Position numbers and translations under genes: made by a program
Notes under the pieces: model-generated
Told to the model about the DNA's origin: nothing
The model's input: the letters and a program-made list of their open reading frames with translations, nothing else
Databases searched by the model: none
Shown here: positions 18,035 to 30,777 of the stretch, in pieces
Layout: the number at the start of each line of letters is the position of its first letter
Numbering within the stretch: the stretch's first letter is position 1
Assembly: GCF_009914755.1 (NCBI RefSeq)
Contig: NC_060947.1
Length of the DNA: 64,000 nucleotides
Reading direction: 5' to 3' (one strand)
From: the human T2T-CHM13v2.0 reference genome, Homo sapiens

Positions 18035-21000
18035 CTATGTAAAGAAAAAGACATGAGTAAGGGAGGACCCAGAAACTGAAAACAGATTGCACGGTGGGGC
18101 TCAGATACTAGGGGAGCATTTGTATGATTGTTTTTCTAGCACCACCTGGTTCACAGAAGGGGGCCATAATGAGGCATTTATTTACCTGGTTCGCAGTCGA
18201 GGCCACTTCTTCCACTCTATGGCTAGCACTACCCCCAAGGCTACAACAACCACCACGATTAGGCTACTTCGGACAATGTTCCCTACAGTGCACTCCTGAG
18301 CAACAGGCCCTGTGGTGATGAAAGAGGAGAAACCGAGGCCATGGAGATTAGCGTGTGTATGTTCCCCTTGATCTGGTATTGCCCCACACTCTGGCCTTCT
18401 TTAGGGTTCACGTGGGAGCCATCTGTTCAGACTACAGAGGGGGTGGGCAGTGGCAGAGTTTATGCTGAAGCAGAAGCAGCCCTCCTTTCCTTGGGGAAAA
18501 GAGGCCTGAAAAGAAACCCACTCACTATCTTCAAATATATTTAAGGTCCCACCTCCTCATCATCCTTAGGAGAAAGATGACACACTTCAGGTCCCTGGCT
18601 CCAAAGCTCCTCCATTCTCCTGATTTGGGATGTCTCCATGGGGACTGTCCCTGGGATCCCAGGTGTGTCACACCAGGACCATGGAGAGATTATTCTCTTA
18701 CCTGCTGCCCCCACCAGCTCCAGGGGATCACTAGGCTCTGACCAGATATCAGGGTAGGCCTGGAGGCGGTAGCTGCAGCTGTAGTTTCCAATGCCTTTTC
18801 CTTCTACGTTGTTGATGACAAAGTCTCCATCCTCTGAAAACTGCTGAGGTGCTTCTTCTCCATCATGTTCTAGGACAAATTCAACACCTGGCAGGGGTCC
18901 TCGGCACTGAAGGGTGATGTCCTTCCCTAACTTGAACATGGTGCTGGGCCAGGCTGACAGAGAGGGTTTAGGGGGCTTATCTGCAACCAACAAGGACACA
19001 GAGTTAAAAGAAATGATCCTGAACTTAGCCTTTTACCCCCTTATTGCTTACTGCTAAAAACTACAAAATCGTGACTTGTACTGAAGTCTCCAGGACCTTA
19101 CCAGTCACCCAGATCTCCAGGGAGTCACTGTGATTTGAAGCTGCAAAGGGAGTAGAGTCCAAATAATAAACACAGCTATAGATCCCAGAGTCTTCACCTC
19201 TCACTGCTGGCATCCAGAAGTCAGCCCTGTACCCACTTGGCCTCTGTTGCTCTAAAGGCTCCTGAGCCCCCTCCTTCAACAGGACAAATGTTGAGTCTGG
19301 CAGTTCCCCTTGACACTGAAGAGTCATATTTTCGCCAGGGGCCACCATGGGACCAGGCTGGGCTAATAGGCTGGGTTTGGGGAGTAAGCCTGGAAGAAAT
19401 GAACTCCTGGTCAAAGAGAAGAGGTCACTTTCCAGTGCATCACCCCTGGGGTCTCTGCTCAATAAAGAGGAAAGGCAATTGGTTGCCTCTCCTCGAGCTC
19501 TCTGAAAACTATCTCCCATGAACTAGTCTATTCCCTCCTTTCTACACTTCCATGCCCACTCGACAGCCTCTTCCCCTTACCTGTGACTAGGAGTTCCAGG
19601 GTGTTGCTAGGTTGTATCTTGATAGAACTGGTCCAGTCAGGGTGGTAGCAGCAGCTGTAACGCCCCATGCTAGTACCAGATATATTGGTGATGGGGAATG
19701 CCCCGTCATTACTGGTGGATCCCCAGAGCTGCATTGAAGTGGCTTCTCCTTCTTTGTGCAGAATGTATCCTACTCCATGGACCGGCCCTCGGCACCAGAG
19801 AGTAACATTCTGCCCCATGGGAACCACAGAACTGGGCTCAGCAAACAACCATGGCTTAGGGAATGTGTCTAGAAAGAGACCAAGGTTGTAAAGTGGTGAC
19901 TATAGAAACTTATGAGTTCCTGCTTAAATTAACACTCTATCTTTCTCCTCTTGGGCACGGTAGTTCCCCTCCGTGGCCTAGCCTAGCCTTCCAGGAGGAA
20001 TTACTCTCCCTAACCCCTTCTCCAATGATCTCCATCCCAGTCCCATGTCCGGTCGGTCCTTACCAGTCACCCAGATCATAAGGGGCATACTGAGATATGA
20101 CCCCCTGTTTGACATGGTTGTCTCATAGTAGATACAGCTATAGTTCCCAGAGTCCTCTGCTCCAACAGTGTGGAGAAGGAAGTCAGCTGAGTTCCCTGAG
20201 ACACTCCGAAACTGTAAGGGAACATGGGCTCCCTCCTGCAAGAGGGCGAACCTCATGCCCTGGAAAGTCCCTTGGCAGCGCAGGATCACACTCTTCCCAG
20301 GAAACACCACAGGACCTGGCTGTGCCAGGAGAGTGGGTTTGGGGTAGAATTCTGAAATTAAAGAGACCACAGCATGAGATAAACCCAGCCCTCACATCCT
20401 GCAAATAGCCTTTTAAAGTGTTATTGTAAGACACAATATATGTTTGTTGTTAAAAATTAGAAAATATAGAAAAAAAAACTAATGAAGGAAACACAATTCT
20501 ACCACTCAAAGATAAATATTTTTAATATTTAATTGCCATTTATTCTTTCCATATATTCCCATGTCCATGTAGCTATAACTGTTTACATAATTGGGACTCC
20601 ACTTATGCACAGTTGTGTAGTTGTGTAGTATGCAGCTGACATTTCAAGGTCTTCTCCCTTTCTCTGAGAGCCATCCAGCCCACCGGTCTCTGACAGCCCA
20701 GCTAGAGAAAAAGTGGACATTGAGCCTAAAGCTCAATGCCAAGCCATAAAAATGTGCAGAAATAGGGCAAGTTGAACCGAGCTCTTGGGATTAGACACCC
20801 CCATCTACCTCATTTATTTCCCCAGAAGTGAATTGCTTGCCTCCCCACTGCCTTTGTTTCTTGTTCCTGTAATAATAACATGAGCAGCTGTGCATCATGG
20901 ACTGGTCACTATGGGCCAGCCGCTGTCCTAAGCACGTTCTCAGTGTGTTTTAGAAGAAACATTTCTTCCTCTCCCACTGACAGCCTTCCACCCACCATCC

Positions 21001-24000
21001 CAGGGTTGGCACCACCTCTACCTGGAGTCCCCCCTCCTAACCTGTCACCACGAGCTCCACAGGGTCGCTGGGCTCAGACCAGATAGAAAAGTCATAATAT
21101 CGGCAGCTGTAATTCCCTCCATCACCAATGCCCACCGAAATGATTAGAAAGTGAGCTGCACTGGCCCCCGGACTTGCCCAGGACCTGTCACTGGATGCTA
21201 TTTCACTTCCATCTTTGTAAAGAATAAAGCTCATATGCTGGTGGGGGGTGGAGCAATTGAAAGTCACTCGGGCACCAGGGGTGACCACAGGGCTGGCCCA
21301 TGTCTTGAAGAAGGGCTTAGGGTACATTTCTAGAAGGCAAAAAACAAAAACAAAAACAAAAAACAAAATACAACACAAAACCAAATTAAGAACAAGAAAG
21401 AGAGAAAGCAAATATAGCAAATATTGGTTCTCGGAGGCTTCTTTGCTTTTAAGTAAGTGCATTTAAAAAGTAAGGTAAATCCACTTTGCAGATGGACTTC
21501 TCACACAGGGACCCTTCAACCCCACCCCTCACTACCTCCAGATGAGTCCTCAGTGTGATCAGGGCAGGCAATGGAGGCTAGTAAAAAGGTAGAATTTTTC
21601 TTGGGGTTCTGCTGATTCTCTGAGCCTCAGTTTGCCCATTTGGACAAGGGGAAAATGGTACCTGCTTCACCCACCTTGAAGAGTTGCTCTATGGTGAAGT
21701 GAGATAATTGATGTGAAAATAATTAGAAAAATTAAATCACCCTCCACGAACCAAAGCTATTAATAACGATTATGGCTATTAATATCGTGCAGCCAGAGGC
21801 CCTGGCACTCCCAGCGCCACGCCTGCCTGGCTCTAAGATTGGACACAGGCTCTCAGGACCAGCAGCAAAGTTTGCTGCAGGGAGAGGAGTGTCTGACCCA
21901 GGGCTTTGCCTTTCCCTCCACCCTGCCCCCTTTCCTCCCACACCCTTTTCAGCTCTACCTTTTATGACAAGCTCCAGCGGCTCACTGGGCTCAGACCACT
22001 TGAAGGGGCGTTTTTCAGTGTGAGTGCGGCAGCTGTAATTGCCTTCGTCTTTATCCTCCATTCTCTGGATTGTAAAGAAGGCTTCTCTTCCAACAGCACC
22101 AAGTTGCTGGACAGGTTCTTGCTCTCCCTCCTTATACAGAGCAAACCCCATGCCTGCCAGCCATCCTTTGCACCGGAGTTGTAGTTCCTGGCCCCGGATT
22201 GTGGGGGAAGCAGAAATGACAGGTTTGGGGAGGATGTCTGGAAAACAGAATGGGGTGAAAAAGGAGTCAGAAGTTTGCAGTTGCCCAGATGGGATACTCA
22301 GGGTCACTTTGTCAGCAAATAAAGACATTCATTCTGGGCTGGCCCTAGGCTCTTCCAGTCAGTCTCCTCACACTCTCTTTCCCATTCCGCCCCTCCCCCT
22401 ACCCCATAACCCCCTACCATTTCAGTGCCCCTCCTCTCCTACATGCAGCACGAGCCCCTTGGGCTCCAGGGTCCCTGTGAGTTCATTCCCTCACTCCCAG
22501 GAGCAGTGTTGGAGTCCCAGGGGCACTGGGGATAACTCCCGGAGACCCTCTACATTTTCTTACCTGTCCCCACCAGCTCAAGTGCCTCACTGGGCTCCGA
22601 TACAGCCATCTCCTCCCATGAATGGCAGTGGTAGCTCCCGGTGTGGCTCTGGGTCAGGGCGCCAAGGGGGAAGGCAGCCCGGACCTGCTCTGAGGCCGGG
22701 CGAGTGGCGATCCACCCGGTCCCATCCTTCAGCAACACAAACTCCTTAGTTGAGCCAGAAGGGCTTCTGCACCAGAGGGTTAAGTTCTTCCACGGGGCCA
22801 GAGGAAAGTTGGTCTCTGCCCACAGCTCAGGCTTAGGGGTTGGCATGACTATTTCTAGAAACAGCAGAATTAATGAAGCCATCCTCCCGCCTCCCTTCCC
22901 CTCCCTCCTCCTTGCCCTTGAACCCTCTACCCAGATCACACTGCCCACCTCCCCTTGCAACCCAAATCCAAACCCTTTCCTTCTTTCCTTCCTTCCTCAG
23001 GTGCTGGGGAAAGGGGAAGCTGGTGTCTTATAGCTGAGCCTCAGAAAAGTGCAGAAGCTTGGAGGAAATTTTGCAGGCAGAAAGGCAAAGTTGGAGGCTG
23101 AATTTTGCCAGCAGCTTTAGCAAGTGCCCCTTCCTGGCTGCCCTTCCCTCCCAACCAGCCACTCCCTGGCCAATGACACTGACGCTCTGTAGTTATTTCG
23201 GATCTCCAGGGAGGAATGTCCCAGTCTGGAGCAGGAAAAACTCACCAGTCTCTTCTATCAATACCCCATTGCACAGTCCTGCAAAAGAAATTGCTGCCAG
23301 GACTCGGCCCCCTCCCCCACCGGGACTTCACCCCGGCCTTCTGCCCGGGGCCCCTTCCCCCACTTGTACTCACCACAGCAGAGAAGGGCCGTGACTATGA
23401 AGAGCATGGTGACCCCTTGAGCTGTTCCCAGCAACCAGGCTTCTCTAGTGAGACCAGAAAAGAGATGAGAGGAGTTGCTGGGATGAGGGGGAGGGTGGAG
23501 GAAAGGGGGCGGCAATTTATGTCATTGGCTTACTCGCTACCCAATGGGGACTGGATATGGCCAAGATAATCGGATATAATCTTATTTGACATCAATGACT
23601 TTTCTTTTTGAGGGCCTTACCACCTACAAACCTCTTGCTCTTTCATGACCCACGTGTCCCCCCCGCCCCCTCCCCACTCCGCAGCCTATATCATATGTCA
23701 GCTCCCCATGGCCCCTGATTAGGTTGTTGCTGGAATTGAGATGTCAGATGGGAAAATGCTTTTATATTATTTGGAGCTCTCAGAACCCCTGGAGCTCATT
23801 GTGATCGGCAGCTCTGGGTGGTGTGTGTGGGGGTGGAGGGAGAAACTGTGAGTATTTCTCAGTCATCAAGTTTAAGTTCGGAAGCAGTTGTTGTGGCAGT
23901 ATTGGTCCTCAGACCCACCTGCCTCACCTGCCTTTGTTATGGAAGGGTTGCCTAGGCAGCTGTGATGAATTACTAGAAGATTGGCAGTGCCGAGCCAAGC

Positions 24001-27000
24001 TTTTCAGAGAGTAGAAACTCTCCCCTCACCCAGATTATAACTAGAAATGTGCAGCAGCTTTGGGTCATGAGTCTTGTAGTATTAGATGATATTAACCCAA
24101 AATCCATTGGACAATTTTTACTTAGAAAACACTGACCATCCTTCCTGGTGAGGAAAACATGATTTTCAAGCTGCTTTCTCTGAAATCTGGTTCCTGATCT
24201 TATTCTTTGATGCAGTGTTGCTGGGCTGGGGTGGGGCACATAAAGCTACATTTTTTTTTTTTTCTAACCACTGGCTTGGAGATTACTCTAATGAGTACGG
24301 GACCCAGGTCAGGTTCCGGAAAGAAGTAGAACTTGACCCCTGCTGAAACTTTTTGAAAACTCAAAGGGTGGTGGTTTTTGCAGAAGGCTTAGGTGGCTCC
24401 CTTCTGATTGCCCAAGTATTCTGTCCCTCAGATTCCAGTGGAAAACACAGACACATGTAATCATAATCATAATCCATTGTGCATTGAATACTTCCAGACA
24501 CACTGACCACAGTTGCAGGGCGGGGGGTACAGCCAGAAGCAGGGAGTAGGGGGAAGTAGACAAGGTATTCAGGAGCTAACATCCCTACTGGGTCAGAAGT
24601 GGTCATTTCTCTCCTTGTTCCCAGTAGAGTAGCCTGAGCACAAGCCATGGGGATGAGAGAGGCAGATGGCCCAGAGCACACCACAGAATCAAAGGAAATG
24701 GCAGGAGAATCTGTTTGGCCTGTGAGTTTGTGAGTCAGAGGAAACAGTCTGATTCTGTTGCCCCGTCCAATATCACATCAGATGGCCATCCAGGTCAAGT
24801 CTATATTCCCAGAATGCTCTGCACAGGTGGTTGGAGGCCACAGTGTCAGAGACTGGTTACTAAGGCAACTAGGATGCGTCACAAGGCTTAATAGCTCCTG
24901 AGAGCTAGGGATAAGGGTGAAAAGTTGGGATAGGAGTTGGATAACAGTCTGGGAGACAGGACAGCATGGCTTCTTACAAGAGGAAAAATCCAGAACAAGT
25001 TAATGAGGGAGACATCAATCATCTCTGAGGGCAGGATGGTTTGTGGGCGAGATTTGGGCACCCTCCGGGGGGGATGTCAGTGAATGCAGTTCTGATTACT
25101 CCTCTTGCCTCTGAGAACTATGCATTTCTCCACCCGCTGGCTTGAGTGCTGACCCCTCTGTGAGGCGAAAGAGACAGGTGGGGTGAGAAAGTCTTGTTCC
25201 CTAAGCCCAGAAGATAGGGGTTCTATAGGGTTTGCCTCTGTGGCTTGTCTCAACTAGGGCATGACTCATTCTTCAGACTCTGTTAGGTTGGGGAACAGGG
25301 GGCTGGGACAAGACAGTTACCTGATTCTGAGTCTCCGACACTTCCACCTTATCCACAGCACTACCAACAGCAAGGCAACAAGCTGCATGATTAGAGACAA
25401 CCTGATAGCTTCATTCAGAACGTAATTCCAGGTGAGATAGCCTGTGGCCAGAGAAGACCAGAATCAGAGGCCTTGATGGGGACAGGGGCAGGTGAATACA
25501 TTCATGGGGTGAGGACAATCTGGTTACTGACAGTGCTTATATTGAGAAGGTGAGGCAGAAGTGGCCTTCTTTTTCATGGAGAATGGGAGCCTTGAAATTA
25601 TCCTGCTAACTGCCTTTGAGGAATTGTGAGACCACCCCAGGGGAAGGGTGCTGAAACCCAAGGGCTCTGATTTTCAGGCCTCTGACTCCCTTTCCCATAT
25701 CTTTCTGGGCACTGATCTGGGATCCCTGGGGTATGGAGGGGCATTCCTCTGAAGAGTTATCCTCTCACCTGCTGGCCCCATCAGCTTCAGGGGCTCACTG
25801 CGATGTGACCAGATGTTAGGATGTGTCTCTACGCGATAGCTGCAACTGTAGGTCCCTGTGCCTTTCCCGTCAACATTACTGATGATGAAGTCTCCGTTTA
25901 CTGAGAATTTTTGGAATGTTTCTCTTTCTTCCCATTCCAGAGAAAATTCCAGTACTGGATGAGATACTCGGCACTGAAGGGTGATGGCCTTTCCTAGCTT
26001 GAACACAGTGCTTGGCCAAGCTGACAGGGAGGGTTTGGGGGGCTTATCTGAAACCAATCCAGAGACCAGAGTGAGAAGTGACCTCAAACCCAGTACCCTC
26101 TCCCCCAGAAAATGTTTCTGAGCTCCCCATTTGATCTTCTCTTCCTTTCCACTTCCACTTGGCCAGTGGCTTCAAGATTTGACTGTGCATTAGAATTCCT
26201 TTGCCCACCCCTTGGTGATCTAAAGATTCCTGGTTCCTTACCTTCAATCAGGAAGACCTCATACCTGTAAGCTTCCTCTGGCCTAAAGAAAAATAATTTT
26301 CCCAGGGGTTACAATGGGGCTGTGCCATACTGAGAGGTGGAGCTTGAGGAACAATCCTGGGAGACAAGGTCCCTAAAGTTTTGGAAGAAAGTTCTACACC
26401 ACCTTCCTAGTGCGTGTGTGTGTGTATGTGTGTGTGTGTTTTGCTCATAGCTCTCAGAGGATATGAGGCTACTAGCTCCTTCTTACAACACCACAATGAT
26501 GATAAAAACAAACAGGTTGATAATAAAAACAGTTGTTAACACTTGCCTACAACCATAAGCTCCACAGTGTTGTGTGATGGCATCCTAATGGAGGTCTTCC
26601 AGGTGAGAAGATAGTGGCAGCTATAGATGCCAGTATCACTGTAGGTTACATTGTTGAGGAAGAATGATGTGTTGTCATCGATGCTGGTGGCATCCAAAAA
26701 TTGAAGTGGTTTGTCTTCTCCTTTCTTATAGAGTGCAAGACCCACTCCATCCACTGGTCCTCGACACCGTAGGCTCACATTCTGACCCATTTGGACCACA
26801 GCACTGGGCCGAGCAAGTAGCCAGGTCTTGGGGAAAGTGTCTAGGATGAGACCCAGAATAAAAAGCACTAGTGATTTCACTTCCTGCTCCCACTCCTTAA
26901 GATTCTTTTCCTTCTCTTCCTCCAAACCACCCTTGGAAAAACCTGCCTACACCCAGTTTTACAAATTCTGCTCCCTTCTCTACTGTTAACCCTGGCCACA

Positions 27001-30000
27001 GGATTAGGTTCTCCAGGGAGCACAGAGGGAGATTTATATCCTTAGCCGTTAACCTAAGTTTCATGGCATACCCGTCTCTTACCAGTTACCCAGATTTTCA
27101 GGACATCACTAAGGAGTGAACCTCTATATGATGCGTCATAGTAAAAACAGAGGTAATGTCCAGTATCTTGGATCTTCAAAGACTGGAAGAAGAAATTTGC
27201 CTCATTTTTTATTGTCTTCTTGTGGTAAAAGGACTTCTCCAAGTCTTCAACCCTCATTAGAGCAAAGGTCATTCCATAGATTGGCCCTTGGCACCTGAGA
27301 TTCAGGCTTTCTCCAGGTGCCATGATGGGCCCAGGATGGGCTGTCAAAGTTGGTTTGGGGTAGAGTCCTACAAACGGAAGAGACCCTAAAGTTAGAGGCA
27401 AGATGATTCTTTCCTGTTGTCTTCTGTTTTCTCTTTCTTAATTTCTTTGAACAAGAAGTGGTAGCTGAAGTTTACCTTCTCTTCCCTATCCCTTCCTTGG
27501 ATCTCTGCCTCTGTAACATAATCAAGGGTAGATTCACTTATGCCCCTGTTCTCTCTCAAGAATCTGCCAGCTTCACTGAGCTCTAACCATGTGTAGGGGT
27601 GTATCTCAGTGGAAGATCTACATCTATAATTCCCTGTATCTTTAGGCCCCTGAAATGCCAAATGTAGTTCTTTCAACCACCAGAAAAACCAAACCTCTGA
27701 AAATAACATTGTTTTCATCTTTGCAGAGCATGAATGCCACTGAAATATTAAGGAGAGCTTTTGAATACATTAAGCTCATTTAAGACCCTACTTCTACAAC
27801 AAGACTGAAAGAAGCCAATAAAGAGGGTTTGGCCAGTAAGTCTGCGACCCAAATAAATCTTTGTTATGGGGCCACACATTCCTTTCCATGAATTGTTTCT
27901 CCAAGGAGATTTTACATGAAAGTGAGGGCAAACCTCACCTCCTACCACTCCTTCCTACCCCCACCCCAATGCCAGGCACACTTATCTATTCATTAAGGAA
28001 GGATCAGCTCTGTCATATGCTCACTGAGCATTTAGTATGCATCAAGCGTCATGTAGGTCTAGGTGTGTATGAGTAAAGAAGACACAGTCTCCGCTAGCAA
28101 AAAGCTCATGAACTGGTTGGTGGGGGATATTGGTGAACAGGTAACTACGGAAGTGTATTTTAGTGGAATCTATGCTGAAAGGGCATGAGTACAACAAACA
28201 TTCATACACTCAGTTCAAACAGGCAGTTTTTGTTCTTTGATCCTCAATAAAAAGCTATACTAACAAAATTAATATCTACCATTTATTGAGAACTTATATG
28301 CCAGGCACTGTACATATATATTTAGGCAAATCCTCACAACAACCCTGTGAGGTAGGCATTATTATTAAACCAATTTTGCAGATCAGGAAGCTGAGGCACA
28401 GAGAGAAGCATTACACAGTAGATCAGATAGATACTGTTATCCCATTTTTAGAGTAGAGGAAGCCAAAGCACAGAAAAGTGAAGTGACTTGCTCAAGACCA
28501 CACAGGGAGGCAGTGTCAGAAATAGAACTAGAAACCAGTATTACTGCTTCTAAGTCTAGGGTACTTTCTGTAGCACCACAGCTTTCCCCAAGCCTATTTA
28601 GCTGGATAGAGAGACTAAAGCAAATGTGGCCAATTCCATCTAGAAACCTCCAGGCCATGGGGTGGGGGAGTTCGGGCTGGGACATGTCTGGCATTTTACA
28701 TTTTGGGGAAATTTCTTCTATATTTAGAGATTGGTGCTGCCTTACTAGCTCTACTGATAGGGAACCAAGGTGATTTATAAAGCCATTTCTAAAATATGAG
28801 CTATCACATTCTTTGTCATTTGTTTTTTTTTGTTTTTACTCACCAACACTAGCAATCCATTCTGTTTTCCACACATAAAAATAACAATTACAAATAAAAT
28901 ACATTTGCAAATTTAAAACTCCATTTATAAGATTGCAGTGGCAGTGCCTGGCACATATTAGGTGCTCAATAAATACTGGTTGAATTAATGAATGAATGCA
29001 TGATATTCAACAAGTTGAGAACAACAAAGCTGTGATGAGCTGAAGCTGCTGGCCAGTTGGCTGGGCTCCTTTACTAGCCAAATGATTGGCTCCCATACAT
29101 CTGCCTTGCAGCACATGCCATTCTAATTTATATCTCAGTAAAACTTCAAACGACTGTAGCTCATGGGGCCTTGCAGGGCCTAGAAACTGGCTGAGGAAAG
29201 TAAAATCAGAAACCCTAGCTCAGCCAGCCATGATACCTGGGACAACAATTGCCAGATGCCAGCAGCCATAGCCACACCCACCTGCTACAACCAGCTTCAG
29301 GGGGTTGCTGGGCTCTGACCACAGGGTGGGGAGCATCTGGATATGAGTGCGGCAGATGTAAACCCCTTCATCCTCAGGTGTCAGGTTGTCAATGGAGAAT
29401 ATGGCCATTGTCCCAGTTGGGACTTGGTAATCCACAGGCTCTGCATATCCCTCTTTAAACAGCATGAATACCAAATCCTGCAGCCAGCCATGGCAGAGGA
29501 TGTTAACATTACACCCAGGAAGAGCGGGGGTCTCAGCCTGAATCCAGAAGATGGGCTTGGGCAGTTGGCCTGGAAGGATAGAATGAACTGGAATTAGGTA
29601 AAGCAAGGATAGTACTGTCTAGGGAGCAGCAGAGGAGAGCTCTACTTTAATTGAGGTTTCCCTGTATGATCCTTGTTTGCCACCCCTCCTTCTCCTATCT
29701 CTGCTCCAGAGTCTGCATCCCCCCTCTGCATTGCCCAATACAAAGTAGGCCCTTATTTACTAACTGTGGGATGCGTGCTTGCATGCATTTGTGAAACAAA
29801 CTCTCCCCTGGAAGGCAAGTTTGAATCTCAGGAGCTGGAGTTGATTCTTGAGTATCACTGTCATCTTACCTGGTGCCTCCAACTCTAGAACTTTACTGGG
29901 CTTTGACCAGCCTGTCTCCTTCCAGTAGCAGCACCGGTAAAGACCTGCATTGGACTCAGTAAGGGCACCTATAAGGAATGAAACTTGGAAGGTCTTGTGG

Positions 30001-30777
30001 GAAGGGCGGATCCAGGTCATCTGTGTCTTATCCTTCAGCAGCAGGAACTTGCTTGATATCCGAGAGGGGCTTCGGCACCAAAGCGTGATGTTCTCCCAAG
30101 GGGCCTGGGGGTAGTTGGACTCTATCCACAACTCCGGTTGAGGGTCCATCACTGTTATTCCCAAAGATCAAAAAGATATGAGCAGTCCAACCCTCTCCCT
30201 CCCATAACATGTCCCACAATGTCCCTTAAAATTAGCCCGGACCCAGATCCCTCATTTTGTCTTCCCTTGGGGACAGGAGTGTGCTCCTGTGGGGCATCGT
30301 ATAAGAACCCCAAGATATTTTGTCAAGGGGTCCAAATGAATTGGAGAATAAAGTCTGATGGTCTCTTTTCCATCTGAGATAAAGCTTTTTCACCATGCCA
30401 TAGGAAACCAAGTCCTCTGATTCCCAATCAGCCCAATCTATCTCTGGAATCTCAAGGCATTATGTCCAAGGTCATGGAGACACGCCAGCATCTTGGATCC
30501 TTTAGGAAGGAGGTGCCTGAGAGGGCAGGACTCACTTACCTATCGATGTCATACCCAGACTCATCCCTGAAAAGAGAGATTATGGTAAAGGAGAGCTCCC
30601 TTGTTGTCTCCATCCTGTGCTCAAACCTCAATACTTTCCTCTCCCACCCCTAATGAGTGGGTACCTATGACAGGGTCACTTGCCCCTCACCCCTTCCTTG
30701 TACTCACGAATGCAAAAGAGCAAAACAGTGAATGTCTTCAGCATGGTGGCCCCCTCCCCTGGTCTGTCCAGGGTCAT
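17899..30777 (-). CDS. IGSF1: IGSF1 (immunoglobulin superfamily member 1) spliced CDS, 19 coding exons, 1336 aa
   Basis: Exon lengths 70+27+282+288+285+294+279+121+71+33+291+279+288+288+288+288+279+124+136 = 4011 nt. Translation MTLDRPGEGATMLKTFTVLLFCIRMSLG...SQRISVELPVPI* is the protein I recognise as IGSF1. All junctions are GT-AG except one GC-AG. Confidence 0.98.
18186..18309 (-). CDS. IGSF1: IGSF1 exon 19, C-terminal transmembrane segment
   Basis: GPVAQECTVGNIVRSSLIVVVVVALGVVLAIEWKKWPRLRTR; 124 nt; phase 1-2. Confidence 0.96.
18702..18980 (-). CDS. IGSF1: IGSF1 exon 18, Ig12
   Basis: DKPPKPSL...GIGNYSC...LELVGAA; 279 nt. Confidence 0.97.
19102..19389 (-). CDS. IGSF1: IGSF1 exon 17, Ig11
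   Basis: GLLPKPSL...DSGIYSC...LEIWVT; 288 nt. Confidence 0.97.
19581..19868 (-). CDS. IGSF1: IGSF1 exon 16, Ig10
   Basis: DTFPKPWL...SMGRYSC...LELLVT; 288 nt. Confidence 0.97.
20064..20351 (-). CDS. IGSF1: IGSF1 exon 15, Ig9
   Basis: EFYPKPTL...DSGNYSC...MIWVT; 288 nt. Confidence 0.97.
21042..21329 (-). CDS. IGSF1: IGSF1 exon 14, Ig8
   Basis: EMYPKPFF...DGGNYSC...VELVVT; 288 nt. Confidence 0.97.
21959..22237 (-). CDS. IGSF1: IGSF1 exon 13, Ig7
   Basis: DILPKPVI...DEGNYSC...LELVIK; 279 nt. Confidence 0.97.
22564..22854 (-). CDS. IGSF1: IGSF1 exon 12, Ig6
   Basis: EIVMPTPKPELW...HTGSYHC...LELVGT; 291 nt. Confidence 0.97.
23246..23278 (-). CDS. IGSF1: IGSF1 exon 11, 33-nt micro-exon (GLCNGVLIEET)
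   Basis: ttcttttgcag|GA...ACTG|gtgagt; phase 1-1. Confidence 0.94.
23374..23444 (-). CDS. IGSF1: IGSF1 exon 10, internal signal peptide
   Basis: EAWLLGTAQGVTMLFIVTALLCC; 71 nt; donor G|GTGAGT. Confidence 0.95.
25321..25441 (-). CDS. IGSF1: IGSF1 exon 9, first transmembrane segment
   Basis: GYLTWNYVLNEAIRLSLIMQLVALLLVVLWIRWKCRRLRIR; 121 nt; phase 1-2. Confidence 0.95.
25769..26047 (-). CDS. IGSF1: IGSF1 exon 8, Ig5
   Basis: DKPPKPSL...GTGTYSC...LMGPA; 279 nt. Confidence 0.97.
26155..26356 (-). pseudogene. Fossil Ig-domain pseudoexon in IGSF1 intron 7 (paralog of exon 17/Ig11), 3' part decayed
   Basis: Phase-1 acceptor then (G)LFLKLHLSVWHSPIVTPGKIIFL*, 1-nt deletion, QRKLTGMRSS*LKVRNQESLDHQ. 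Confidence 0.8.
26547..26840 (-). CDS. IGSF1: IGSF1 exon 7, Ig4 (GC donor)
   Basis: DTFPKTWL...DTGIYSC...ELMVV; 294 nt; donor AG|GCAAGT. Confidence 0.95.
27083..27367 (-). CDS. IGSF1: IGSF1 exon 6, Ig3
   Basis: GLYPKPTL...DTGHYLC...KIWVT; 285 nt. Confidence 0.97.
27545..27841 (-). pseudogene. Fossil Ig-domain pseudoexon in IGSF1 intron 5 (paralog of exon 14/Ig8)
   Basis: Phase-1 acceptor then (D)LLAKPSLLASFSLVVEVGS*MSLMY...FMLCKDE..., frameshift, PKDTGNYRC...TWLELSE. Confidence 0.88.
28270..28580 (-). mobile_element. MIR elements in IGSF1 intron 5
   Basis: accatttattgag...cctcacaacaaccctgtgaggtagg...gaagctgaggcacagaga, with a second core at ~28435-28570. Confidence 0.88.
29282..29569 (-). 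CDS. IGSF1: IGSF1 exon 5, Ig2
   Basis: GQLPKPIFW...DEGVYIC...LKLVVA; 288 nt; donor G|GTGGGT. Confidence 0.97.
29870..30151 (-). CDS. IGSF1: IGSF1 exon 4, Ig1
   Basis: VMDPQPELW...C...AGLYRCC...LELEAP; AG/GT bounded; 282 nt. Confidence 0.97.
30540..30566 (-). CDS. IGSF1: IGSF1 exon 3, 27-nt micro-exon ending the signal peptide (RMSLGMTSI)
   Basis: ctcttttcag|GG...ATAG|gtaagt; phase 1-1. Confidence 0.95.
30708..30777 (-). CDS. IGSF1: IGSF1 exon 2 coding part: start codon and signal peptide (MTLDRPGEGATMLKTFTVLLFCI)
   Basis: ATG at 30777 and a second in-frame GCCACCATG at 30744. Donor C|GTGAGT. Probable acceptor ttctgcttttag with exon start near 30844. Confidence 0.95.

What the first reader, a model, noticed from the sequence alone, without database searches (positions are those of the whole stretch)
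27545..27841. Dead Ig exon in intron 5 at the slot corresponding to Ig8
Minus strand: cgcag|AC (phase 1, like all IGSF1 Ig exons) then (D)LLAKPSLLASFSLVVEVGS*MSLMYSKALLNISVAFMLCKDEN. This aligns without gaps to Ig8 EMYPKPFFKTWASPVVTPGARVTFNC over the first 26 residues. TAA occupies codon 21 (27780-27782), and the B-strand Cys26 is TAT (27765-27767, one change from TGT). FMLCKDE matches FILYKDG. After a frameshift come PKDTGNYRC (intact D-x-G-x-Y-x-C motif) and TWLELSE (cf. WSEPSD). Length is ~295 nt and the donor is degenerate (ggggcataag).
Basis: seen in the sequence. Interest (0 to 1): 0.8.

Follow-up and report, generated by a model that had tools for sequence, protein, structure and literature searches.

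The report
Fossil Ig exon inside human IGSF1
An intron of the human IGSF1 gene holds the decayed remains of an extra immunoglobulin-domain exon, and a second remnant lies two introns further on, which together indicate that the gene's front half began as a full seven-domain copy of its back half.

Summary
On the minus strand, 27841..27545 starts with an AG acceptor in phase 1. It reads an Ig-like frame broken by TAA at codon 21, has TAT in place of the B-strand Cys, shifts frame, keeps an intact D-x-G-x-Y-x-C motif and has no GT donor.

A DNA profile of the 12 live IGSF1 Ig exons hits it at E=7e-13 (43 bits). The best control score was 6.8 bits. It is single-copy in the genome, so it is neither chance nor a repeat.

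The same profile found a second, truncated relic at 26356..26198 in intron 7 (E=2e-8), clearly closest to Ig11. The gene order therefore reads Ig1, Ig2, relic A, Ig3, Ig4, relic B, Ig5, parallel to Ig6-Ig12.

Kinship of relic A to Ig8 rests mainly on position. DNA trees pair them at 75-81% support, but its 3' half looks Ig7/Ig2-like.

No eutherian protein model carries either exon: 0 of 103 for relic A and 0 of 95 for relic B.

Published work inferred that loops 8 and 11 were lost from the N-half. I found no report of these relics. This is a modest new detail of a known kind.

The parts
27545..27841 (-). Relic A: dead Ig-domain exon (297 nt) in IGSF1 intron 5, between the Ig2 and Ig3 exons
   Evidence: nhmmer with a profile of the 12 live Ig exons scores 43.1 bits, E=7.1e-13, over model positions 10-268 of 288. 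Controls reach at most 6.8 bits. It is single-copy in the 3.1-Gb assembly. It has stops in all three frames.
27842..27843 (-). Retained AG acceptor of relic A, with phase 1 as in all live Ig exons
   Evidence: Upstream pyrimidines are 9 of 18, equal to the weakest live acceptor (exon 4).
27780..27782 (-). In-frame TAA stop, at codon 21 of the relic
27765..27767 (-). TAT codon at the position of the B-strand cysteine
   Evidence: 10 of 12 live loops have Cys at this ungapped position.
27620..27640 (-). Intact D-x-G-x-Y-x-C F-strand motif, read in a frame shifted by one base relative to the exon start
   Evidence: The profile alignment shows indels between about 27690 and 27650.
27543..27544 (-). 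Lost splice donor: GG where the live exons have GT (18) or GC (1)
26198..26356 (-). Relic B: 5' half of a dead Ig exon in intron 7, between the Ig4 and Ig5 exons. It has an AG acceptor at 26358-26357, stops and a 1-nt deletion, and its 3' half is missing.
   Evidence: The profile hits 26353-26208 at E=2.4e-8, model positions 4-150. The best single-exon match is Ig11 at 27.8 bits, with the next at 11.8. Identity to Ig11 is 86/146. It is sister to Ig11 at 76% support.
21042..21329 (-). Live Ig8 exon, the C-half unit in the same slot as relic A
   Evidence: Hub annotation table. ML sister of relic A at 75-81% support.
19102..19389 (-). Live Ig11 exon, the C-half unit in the same slot as relic B
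21959..22237 (-). Live Ig7 exon, the closest match to the 3' half of relic A
   Evidence: 24.8 bits; 21.5 bits; 67/112 identity; best non-self hit genome-wide, at window 21978-22055.

Best explanation
Window 27545-27841 (minus strand) is a fossil exon. It once encoded an LRC-type Ig domain in the N-terminal half of IGSF1 and has since been disabled in place.

The lesions are a stop codon, loss of the B-strand cysteine, a frameshift, a further stop and loss of the GT donor. The splicing machinery now skips it, and it contributes nothing to the protein. If it were included, the stop at codon 21 would truncate the reading frame.

A second, half-deleted fossil lies in intron 7 (26198-26356). Together they indicate that the internal duplication that built IGSF1 copied a block of seven Ig exons. 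The N-terminal copy then lost the exons in the positions of Ig8 and Ig11 by decay in place, not because they were missing from the duplicated segment.

Shown: Ig-exon homology, lesions, position, single-copy status, and absence from annotated transcripts and from eutherian protein models.

Inferred: that relic A is the true counterpart of Ig8, that skipping is caused by the lost donor, and that both deaths predate the eutherian radiation.
For: - **Homology:** the profile of the 12 live Ig exons hits relic A at E=7.1e-13 and relic B at E=2.4e-8. The next best hit in the 64-kb window has E=0.58. Controls reach at most 6.8 bits.
- **Anatomy:** relic A has a phase-1 AG acceptor, is 297 nt long (live exons are 279-294 nt) and keeps the D-x-G-x-Y-x-C motif.
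- **Lesions:** it has 4, 5 and 6 stops in its three frames and no GT or GC donor.
- **Order:** Ig1, Ig2, A, Ig3, Ig4, B, Ig5 mirrors Ig6-Ig12. The DNA ML tree recovers all seven same-slot pairs: 1/6 at 100, 2/7 at 89, A/8 at 75, 3/9 at 63, 4/10 at 100, B/11 at 76 and 5/12 at 98. A MAFFT alignment gives A/8 at 81 and B/11 at 76.
- **Relic B is specifically Ig11-like:** it scores 27.8 bits against Ig11 and 11.8 against the next exon, with 59% identity.
- **Not a repeat:** only the relic itself matches in the 3.1-Gb assembly.
- **Not expressed as protein in eutherian models (Ig2-Ig3):** Ig2 joins Ig3 directly in 102 of the 103 models where both were located, out of 120 fetched. The exception, P0068, carries 26 residues of intron-edge read-through.
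- **Not expressed as protein in eutherian models (Ig4-Ig5):** none of the 95 scorable models has a domain-sized insert between Ig4 and Ig5.
- **Transcripts:** the hub's table lists no exon overlapping the relic in 12 RefSeq transcripts.
- **Literature:** Smith et al. 2022 (PMC9162367, Results and Discussion read) inferred from proteins that loops 8 and 11 were lost from the N-half.
Against: - Sequence kinship of relic A to Ig8 is weak. Overall identity is 120/244 for Ig8, 118/242 for Ig5, 122/253 for Ig2 and 117/244 for Ig7.
- Single-exon nhmmer favours Ig7 (24.8 bits), then Ig5 (15.3) and Ig2 (11.5), with Ig8 at 7.1.
- Loop-specific protein HMMs favour Ig7 for the C-part (21.5 bits, against 3.2 for Ig8) and Ig4 or Ig11 for the N-part.
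- The 3'-half tree puts relic A with Ig2/Ig7 at 73%.
- The AU test does not reject relic A joining the Ig2/Ig7 clade (delta lnL 4.7, p=0.35).
- Protein trees were unstable, with relic branches of 1.4-2.0, and contradicted the DNA trees.
- The A/8 pairing could be attraction between two long orphan branches.
- Generic Pfam Ig models do not reach their cut-off.
- No intron homology between the two halves could be detected to support colinearity beyond the exons.
- No genomic DNA of other mammals was available, so the age of the lesions is untested.
- No RNA data were examined.
Confidence: 0.8

Rival explanations
1. Relic A is a dead Ig exon but not the counterpart of Ig8. It would come from an extra tandem copy of an Ig2/Ig7-type exon made within the N-half, or within the ancestral block, which later died. 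Under this reading the Ig8 counterpart was never present in the N-half or was deleted outright.
For: - The 3' half groups with Ig2/Ig7 at 73% support, with identity of 67/112 to Ig7 against 52/103 to Ig8.
- The best single-exon hit is Ig7, as is the best loop-specific HMM hit.
- The best genome-wide non-self hit lies in the Ig7 exon.
- The F-G region has the length seen in Ig2, Ig7, Ig5 and Ig12. Ig8 has a 9-nt gap there.
- The AU test does not reject placement with Ig2/Ig7 (p=0.35).
Against: - The ML optimum pairs relic A with Ig8 in two alignments (75 and 81) and in the 5' half (89).
- A copy made from Ig2 after the block duplication should be sister to Ig2. That topology costs 10 lnL units (p-AU 0.084, RELL 0.013).
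- Relic A sits exactly where Ig8 sits in the other half.
- The independent relic B shows that the N-half did lose slot exons in place.
- Ig7-likeness of the 3' half is also expected if proto-Ig8 was Ig7-like and live Ig8 diverged later.
Confidence: 0.17
2. The stretch is a regulated cassette or poison exon that is still used. It would be included in some tissues to trigger nonsense-mediated decay or to produce a truncated Ig1-Ig2 product.
For: The AG acceptor is retained, with a pyrimidine content (9/18) equal to that of the weakest live acceptor. IGSF1 is known to make short Ig1-Ig2 isoforms: one search lists proteins of 232-262 aa, and the hub table lists an extended exon at 28269-29569.
Against: There is no GT or GC at the homologous donor. 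The known short isoform ends at 28269, upstream of the relic (hub table). No annotated transcript and none of the 103 scorable protein models includes it. No RNA data were examined here.
Confidence: 0.02
3. The similarity is chance, or the stretch is part of a transposon or other dispersed repeat.
For: Generic Pfam Ig profiles are below their cut-off (E=0.022 for the C-part, nothing for the N-part). No transposon library was available to test directly.
Against: The family profile gives E=7.1e-13, while shuffled and reversed controls reach at most 6.8 bits. Strand, phase, length and position all fit an exon of the host gene. The stretch is single-copy in the whole assembly. NCBI's repeat list in the hub table does not mask it.
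Confidence: 0.01

Closest known systems
KIR pseudoexon 3 (lineage III KIR2D genes, another leukocyte-receptor-complex family)
   Same: An Ig-domain exon still sits in the gene but is not incorporated into mRNA. Its presence is taken as evidence that the receptor descends from a form with one more Ig domain (PMC3504360, one passage read). IGSF1 is assigned to the same LRC superfamily (PMC6557307, passages read).
   Different: According to that passage, some chimpanzee KIR genes still have a functional exon 3, so that loss is young. The IGSF1 relics are heavily decayed, with stops in all frames, a frameshift and a lost donor. One is half deleted, and neither is live in any of the 95-103 scorable eutherian protein models examined.
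Published model of IGSF1 origin by internal duplication (Smith, Harrison and Bernard 2022, PMC9162367; Guselnikov and Taranin 2019, PMC6557307)
   Same: The loop pairing is the same: 1/6, 2/7, 3/9(11), 4/10 and 5/12. Both papers conclude that loops 8 and 11 have no N-half partner. My DNA tree reproduces these pairs.
   Different: The results of both papers rest on comparisons of expressed Ig domains. A term search of the 2022 paper found 'intron' only in connection with the intron 9 promoter, and 'nucleotide' not at all. Its Discussion left open whether loop 11 arose in the C-half during the duplication or was lost from the N-half. It said loop 8 was lost 'during or after' the duplication. The two intronic relics are physical remains that favour loss after duplication for both.
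Live IGSF1 Ig exons (C2/I-set type, Pfam PF13895 and PF00047)
   Same: Phase-1 acceptor, about 290 nt, a K-P motif near the start, the D-x-G-x-Y-x-C F-strand motif, a W-x-E-x-S tail, and DNA profile homology.
   Different: No open frame, the B-strand Cys replaced, no donor, and a score below Pfam's cut-off. The live Ig8 exon scores 48.5 bits on PF13895, whereas the relic's best is 15.5 bits on PF00047.

Membership tests
IGSF1/LRC-type Ig-domain exon (by descent) | Significant similarity to a profile of the gene's own Ig exons, on the gene's strand | tested here: met
   E=7.1e-13, 43.1 bits, model positions 10-268 of 288, minus strand. Controls reach at most 6.8 bits.
IGSF1/LRC-type Ig-domain exon (by descent) | Phase-1 AG acceptor and a length of about 279-294 nt that is a multiple of 3 | tested here: met
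   AG|AC at 27843-27840 and a length of 297 nt. This is 3 nt longer than the longest live exon.
IGSF1/LRC-type Ig-domain exon (by descent) | F-strand D-x-G-x-Y-x-C motif | tested here: met
   Present at 27640-27620, in a shifted frame.
Functional Ig-domain exon | Open reading frame through the exon with both disulphide cysteines | tested here: not met
   There are 4, 5 and 6 stops in the three frames, the B-strand Cys codon reads TAT, and there is a frameshift.
Functional Ig-domain exon | GT (or GC) splice donor at the exon end | tested here: not met
   AGG|gg at 27545/27544, against 18 GT and 1 GC among the 19 live donors.
Functional Ig-domain exon | Pfam Ig model above its gathering score | tested here: not met
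   PF00047 scores 15.5 bits against a cut-off of 21.8 for the C-part, and nothing matches the N-part. The two frames had to be scanned separately.
Counterpart (same-slot paralogue) of Ig8 | Same position in the exon order of the duplicated block | tested here: met
   It lies between Ig2 and Ig3, as Ig8 lies between Ig7 and Ig9 (hub table). A second relic fills the Ig11 slot.
Counterpart (same-slot paralogue) of Ig8 | Sister to Ig8 in a tree of all the gene's Ig exons | tested here: inconclusive
   Support is 75, 81 with MAFFT and 89 for the 5' half. The 3' half instead groups with Ig2/Ig7 at 73. The AU test rejects none of the alternatives tested at 5%. Protein trees conflict.
Counterpart (same-slot paralogue) of Ig8 | Greatest pairwise similarity to Ig8 | tested here: not met
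   The best single-exon hit is Ig7 at 24.8 bits, against 7.1 for Ig8. Overall identity is tied at 48-49% among Ig8, Ig5, Ig2 and Ig7.
Pseudoexon (present in the gene, absent from mRNA) | Not part of any annotated transcript or orthologous protein model | tested here: met
   No overlapping exon in 12 RefSeq transcripts (hub table). Of the 103 scorable eutherian models, 102 join Ig2 directly to Ig3 and none carries a domain-sized insert. RNA-seq was not examined.
Transposon or dispersed repeat | Multiple copies in the genome | tested here: not met
   Only the relic itself matches at E<=0.001 in the 3.1-Gb assembly. No transposon consensus library was available.

The most novel reading that the evidence does not exclude
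The two fossils record that IGSF1's N-terminal half started as a complete seven-loop copy and lost loops in place. Relic A also preserves the ancestral form of the otherwise orphan loop 8. Its 5' half is Ig8-like, while its 3' half is still Ig7/Ig2-like and has a full-length F-G region. This implies that proto-Ig8 was itself an older copy of the Ig7-type exon, and that live Ig8 was remodelled after the block duplication, including a 9-nt loss. If so, the relic gives the only outgroup-like view of where loop 8 came from.
Probability: 0.3. Interest if true: 0.5.

Novelty: new member of a known kind. Interest (0 to 1): 0.4.

Why it matters
IGSF1 loss of function causes X-linked central hypothyroidism. 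Its odd two-part architecture, 5 plus 7 Ig loops cleaved at an internal signal peptide, has been explained by an internal duplication.

The 2022 analysis (PMC9162367) left two points open. One was whether loop 11 was added to the C-half or lost from the N-half. The other was whether loop 8 was lost during or after the duplication.

Physical remains of both missing exons, each in the expected intron, turn that inference into something directly checkable. They favour a full seven-exon duplication followed by exon death in the apparently functionless N-half.

In practice the relics give anchors for dating the losses in mammalian genome alignments. They also mark an intronic site with an intact acceptor that is worth checking in patients with IGSF1 deficiency who have no coding variant.

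Tried and rejected
- **Generic Pfam scan of the two frames.** It gave only a sub-threshold hit. The frames could not be joined for that tool. The fourth query of that call was in the wrong frame for relic B and says nothing.
- **Protein-level trees.** These used 12 loops from 8 species plus read-through translations of the relics.
  - Searches used a mis-framed second half of relic B; this was corrected.
  - The placements changed between runs. Relic A went with Ig2/Ig7 at 0.81, then basal. Relic B went with Ig8 at 0.83 and then 0.76.
  - The relic branches are 1.4-2.0 long. I give these trees no weight beyond showing that they conflict with the DNA trees.
  - One labelled loop per class was mis-assigned by best hit in some species.
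- **Homology between introns of the two halves.** With exons and relics masked, the best hit was 28 nt at E=0.03 on the opposite strand, so nothing usable.
- **Relics of non-Ig exons.** Signal peptide, transmembrane, linker and cytoplasmic exons each found only themselves.
- **dN/dS of live N/C pairs for dating.** NG86 dS was 0.88-2.5 and undefined for one pair, which is near saturation on about 93 codons. This is too noisy for a date.
- **Literature search with six loose terms.** The search was badly posed, and none of the 15 listed papers mentions IGSF1.
Full report
**1. What is in the sequence**

Read on the minus strand, the window shows ...cgcag|AC at 27845-27840. In the phase used by every live IGSF1 Ig exon, the next 20 codons are open and begin with a K-P motif. 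They are followed by TAA at 27782-27780.

Five codons later, TAT (27767-27765) stands where 10 of 12 live loops have the B-strand cysteine in the same ungapped register. The frame runs on through an F-M-L-x-K-D-E stretch to a second TAA at 27644-27642.

A frame shifted by one base carries an intact D-x-G-x-Y-x-C motif (27640-27620) and a W-x-E-x-S-E tail. At the position homologous to the donor the sequence is AGG|gg. The 19 real IGSF1 donors are 18 GT and 1 GC.

The stretch is 297 nt long and has 4, 5 and 6 stops in its three frames.

**2. Is it more than chance?**

I built a DNA profile from the 12 annotated Ig exons and searched the whole window on both strands.

- The 12 exons scored E=3e-59 to 9e-43.
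- The next hit was 27832-27570 (-), at 43.1 bits and E=7.1e-13, covering model positions 10-268 of 288.
- A hit I had not been told of followed at 26353-26208 (-), at 28.2 bits and E=2.4e-8, covering model positions 4-150.
- Everything else had E of 0.58 or more.
- The reversed window gave at most 1.9 bits, and 20 locally shuffled copies (1.28 Mb) at most 6.8 bits.

A BLAST-type search of the window's own 3.1-Gb assembly with the 297 nt found only the stretch itself. It is therefore not a dispersed repeat. NCBI's mask in the hub table does not cover it, but no transposon library was available.

Generic Pfam models are not sensitive enough here. The 38-residue C-part scores 15.5 bits on PF00047 (E=0.022, cut-off 21.8) and the N-part scores nothing. 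The live Ig8 exon scores 48.5 bits on PF13895.

**3. The second relic**

In the 499-nt intron between the Ig4 exon (26547-26840) and the Ig5 exon (25769-26047), an AG acceptor at 26358-26357 is followed by a phase-1 reading with a P-G-K motif. After that come a stop, a 1-nt deletion relative to the profile, and a G-M-R stretch as in Ig9.

Similarity ends near 26198. The 3' half of the exon is gone.

This relic is specifically Ig11-like:
- Single-exon nhmmer gives 27.8 bits for Ig11, against 11.8 for Ig12 and 10.9 for Ig9.
- Identity is 86/146 to Ig11, against 74/146 to Ig9.

**4. What the two relics mean together**

The gene order in the N-half is Ig1, Ig2, relic A, Ig3, Ig4, relic B, Ig5. In the C-half it is Ig6 to Ig12.

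A maximum-likelihood tree of the 14 DNA sequences (288 profile columns) recovers all seven same-slot pairs:

| Pair | Support |
|---|---|
| Ig1/Ig6 | 100 |
| Ig2/Ig7 | 89 |
| relic A/Ig8 | 75 |
| Ig3/Ig9 | 63 |
| Ig4/Ig10 | 100 |
| relic B/Ig11 | 76 |
| Ig5/Ig12 | 98 |

A MAFFT alignment gives 81 for A/Ig8 and 76 for B/Ig11.

Two papers had already paired the live loops in this way. They are Guselnikov and Taranin 2019 (PMC6557307, passages read) and Smith, Harrison and Bernard 2022 (PMC9162367, Results and Discussion read).

The 2022 paper proposed that loop 8 was lost from the N-half "during or after" the duplication. For loop 11 it left two options: either it was newly made in the C-half, or it was lost from the N-half.

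A term search of that paper found "intron" only in connection with the intron 9 promoter, and "nucleotide" not at all. Relic B, in the right intron and Ig11-like, favours the second option. Relic A favours loss after the duplication rather than during it.

**5. How firm is the link of relic A to Ig8?**

The positional link is firm. The sequence link is only moderate, and the signal is mosaic.

- Overall identity is tied: Ig8 120/244, Ig5 118/242, Ig2 122/253, Ig7 117/244.
- In the 5' half, Ig8 is nominally best at 68/141, and the tree pairs relic A with Ig8 at 89%.
- In the 3' half, Ig7 is best at 67/112, against 52/103 for Ig8. There relic A groups with Ig2/Ig7 at 73%.
- Single-exon nhmmer gives Ig7 24.8, Ig5 15.3, Ig2 11.5 and Ig8 7.1 bits.
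- Loop-specific protein HMMs were built from 38-64 distinct eutherian sequences per loop. For the C-part they give Ig7 21.5 and Ig8 3.2 bits. For the N-part they give Ig4 11.2, Ig11 8.9 and Ig8 5.9 bits.
- Genome-wide, the best non-self match of the C-part lies in the Ig7 exon.
- The AU test does not reject relic A joining the Ig2/Ig7 clade (delta lnL 4.7, p=0.35).
- Being sister to Ig2 alone, as expected for a late copy of Ig2, costs 10 lnL units (p-AU 0.084, RELL 0.013).
- Protein trees with read-through translations were unstable and conflicted with the DNA trees. One of them used a mis-framed piece of relic B, which I corrected.

I therefore hold "dead Ig exon" at about 0.97 and "true counterpart of Ig8" at about 0.65-0.7. 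A reading that fits both halves of the signal is that proto-Ig8 was an older Ig7-type copy. Live Ig8 would then have been remodelled later. It has a 9-nt gap in the F-G region where relic A, Ig2, Ig7, Ig5 and Ig12 do not.

**6. Is either exon alive anywhere?**

A search with the Ig2 exon for longer proteins returned 122 proteins at E of 0.001 or better, of which 120 were listed. All listed entries come from eutherian mammals, and most are named IGSF1 by their source. They include Afrotheria (elephant, manatee). I saw no xenarthran.

*Ig2 to Ig3 junction.* Both loops were located in 103 of the 120.
- 102 join them with only the split codon between.
- The exception is P0068, a "LOW QUALITY" desman model. 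It has 26 residues that look like read-through of the two intron edges and are not the relic.
- 17 could not be scored.

*Ig4 to Ig5 junction.* 95 of the 120 were scorable.
- 79 had a gap of 1 and nine had a gap of -8.
- Single cases had gaps of -37, -2, 3, 10 and 30.
- Two lacked Ig5, so the next hit was Ig12 (gaps of 611 and 652).
- None had a domain-sized insert.

These are gene models, many of them predicted. They show that no annotation pipeline splices the relics in, not that the DNA is dead in every species.

**7. How it works now**

The relic most likely does nothing. The acceptor survives, with 9 of 18 pyrimidines upstream, the same as the weakest live acceptor. The donor does not survive. 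The hub table's 12 RefSeq transcripts skip the relic.

The known intron-5 read-through exon ends at 28269, upstream of it. Inclusion would bring a stop at codon 21. That the lost donor is the cause of skipping is an inference. I examined no RNA data.

**8. Age**

The ML branch lengths of the relics are 0.54 and 0.45. They are at or above those of the live N-half exons (0.24-0.46) and above those of the C-half exons (0.11-0.43).

Synonymous distances between live N/C pairs are near saturation: NG86 gives 0.88-2.5, and one pair is undefined. Masked introns of the two halves share nothing detectable.

This is compatible with long neutral decay but gives no date. Genomic DNA of other mammals was not available here.

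**9. Novelty**

Searches of the library for IGSF1 with "pseudoexon", "pseudo-exon" or "Ig loop 8" found no report of these relics.
- The only IGSF1-related uses of "pseudoexon" concern opossum LRC genes and a general remark in an IGSF10 paper.
- The 1998 gene-structure papers are not in the library and were not seen.
- Supplements of the two key papers were not opened.

Relic Ig exons are a known kind. KIR pseudoexon 3 is the textbook case in the same superfamily (PMC3504360, one passage read). This is therefore a new member of a known kind. It is of modest interest, and its value lies in settling a stated open point about IGSF1's origin.

Noticed in passing
window 26198-26356 (-): A second, truncated dead Ig exon lies in IGSF1 intron 7, in the slot of Ig11. 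It is specifically Ig11-like and its 3' half is deleted. The finding given to me does not mention it.
   Followed up: yes
window 26545-26546 (-), donor of exon 7 (Ig4): The Ig4 exon uses a GC donor (TAG|gcaagt). It is the only non-GT donor among the 19 introns of the selected transcript.
   Followed up: no
window 21042-21329 (Ig8 exon), F-G region: In the profile alignment, Ig8 has a 9-nt gap in the F-G region where relic A, Ig2, Ig7, Ig5 and Ig12 have full-length sequence. This would be a post-duplication deletion if relic A is its counterpart.
   Followed up: partly
window ~26410-26445 (-), intron 7: An imperfect (CA)n run lies just upstream of the second relic.
   Followed up: no
live N/C exon pairs, window 18702-30151: Synonymous distances between the paired halves are near saturation (NG86 dS 0.88-2.5). 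The transmembrane exons of the two halves find no DNA match to each other. This seemed high to me for a duplication said to be eutherian-specific, but the sample is small.
   Followed up: partly
protein P0068 (desman IGSF1 model): This 'LOW QUALITY' model carries 26- and 30-residue inserts at the Ig2/Ig3 and Ig4/Ig5 junctions. They look like read-through of intron edges, that is, prediction artefacts at exactly the two introns that hold the relics.
   Followed up: partly
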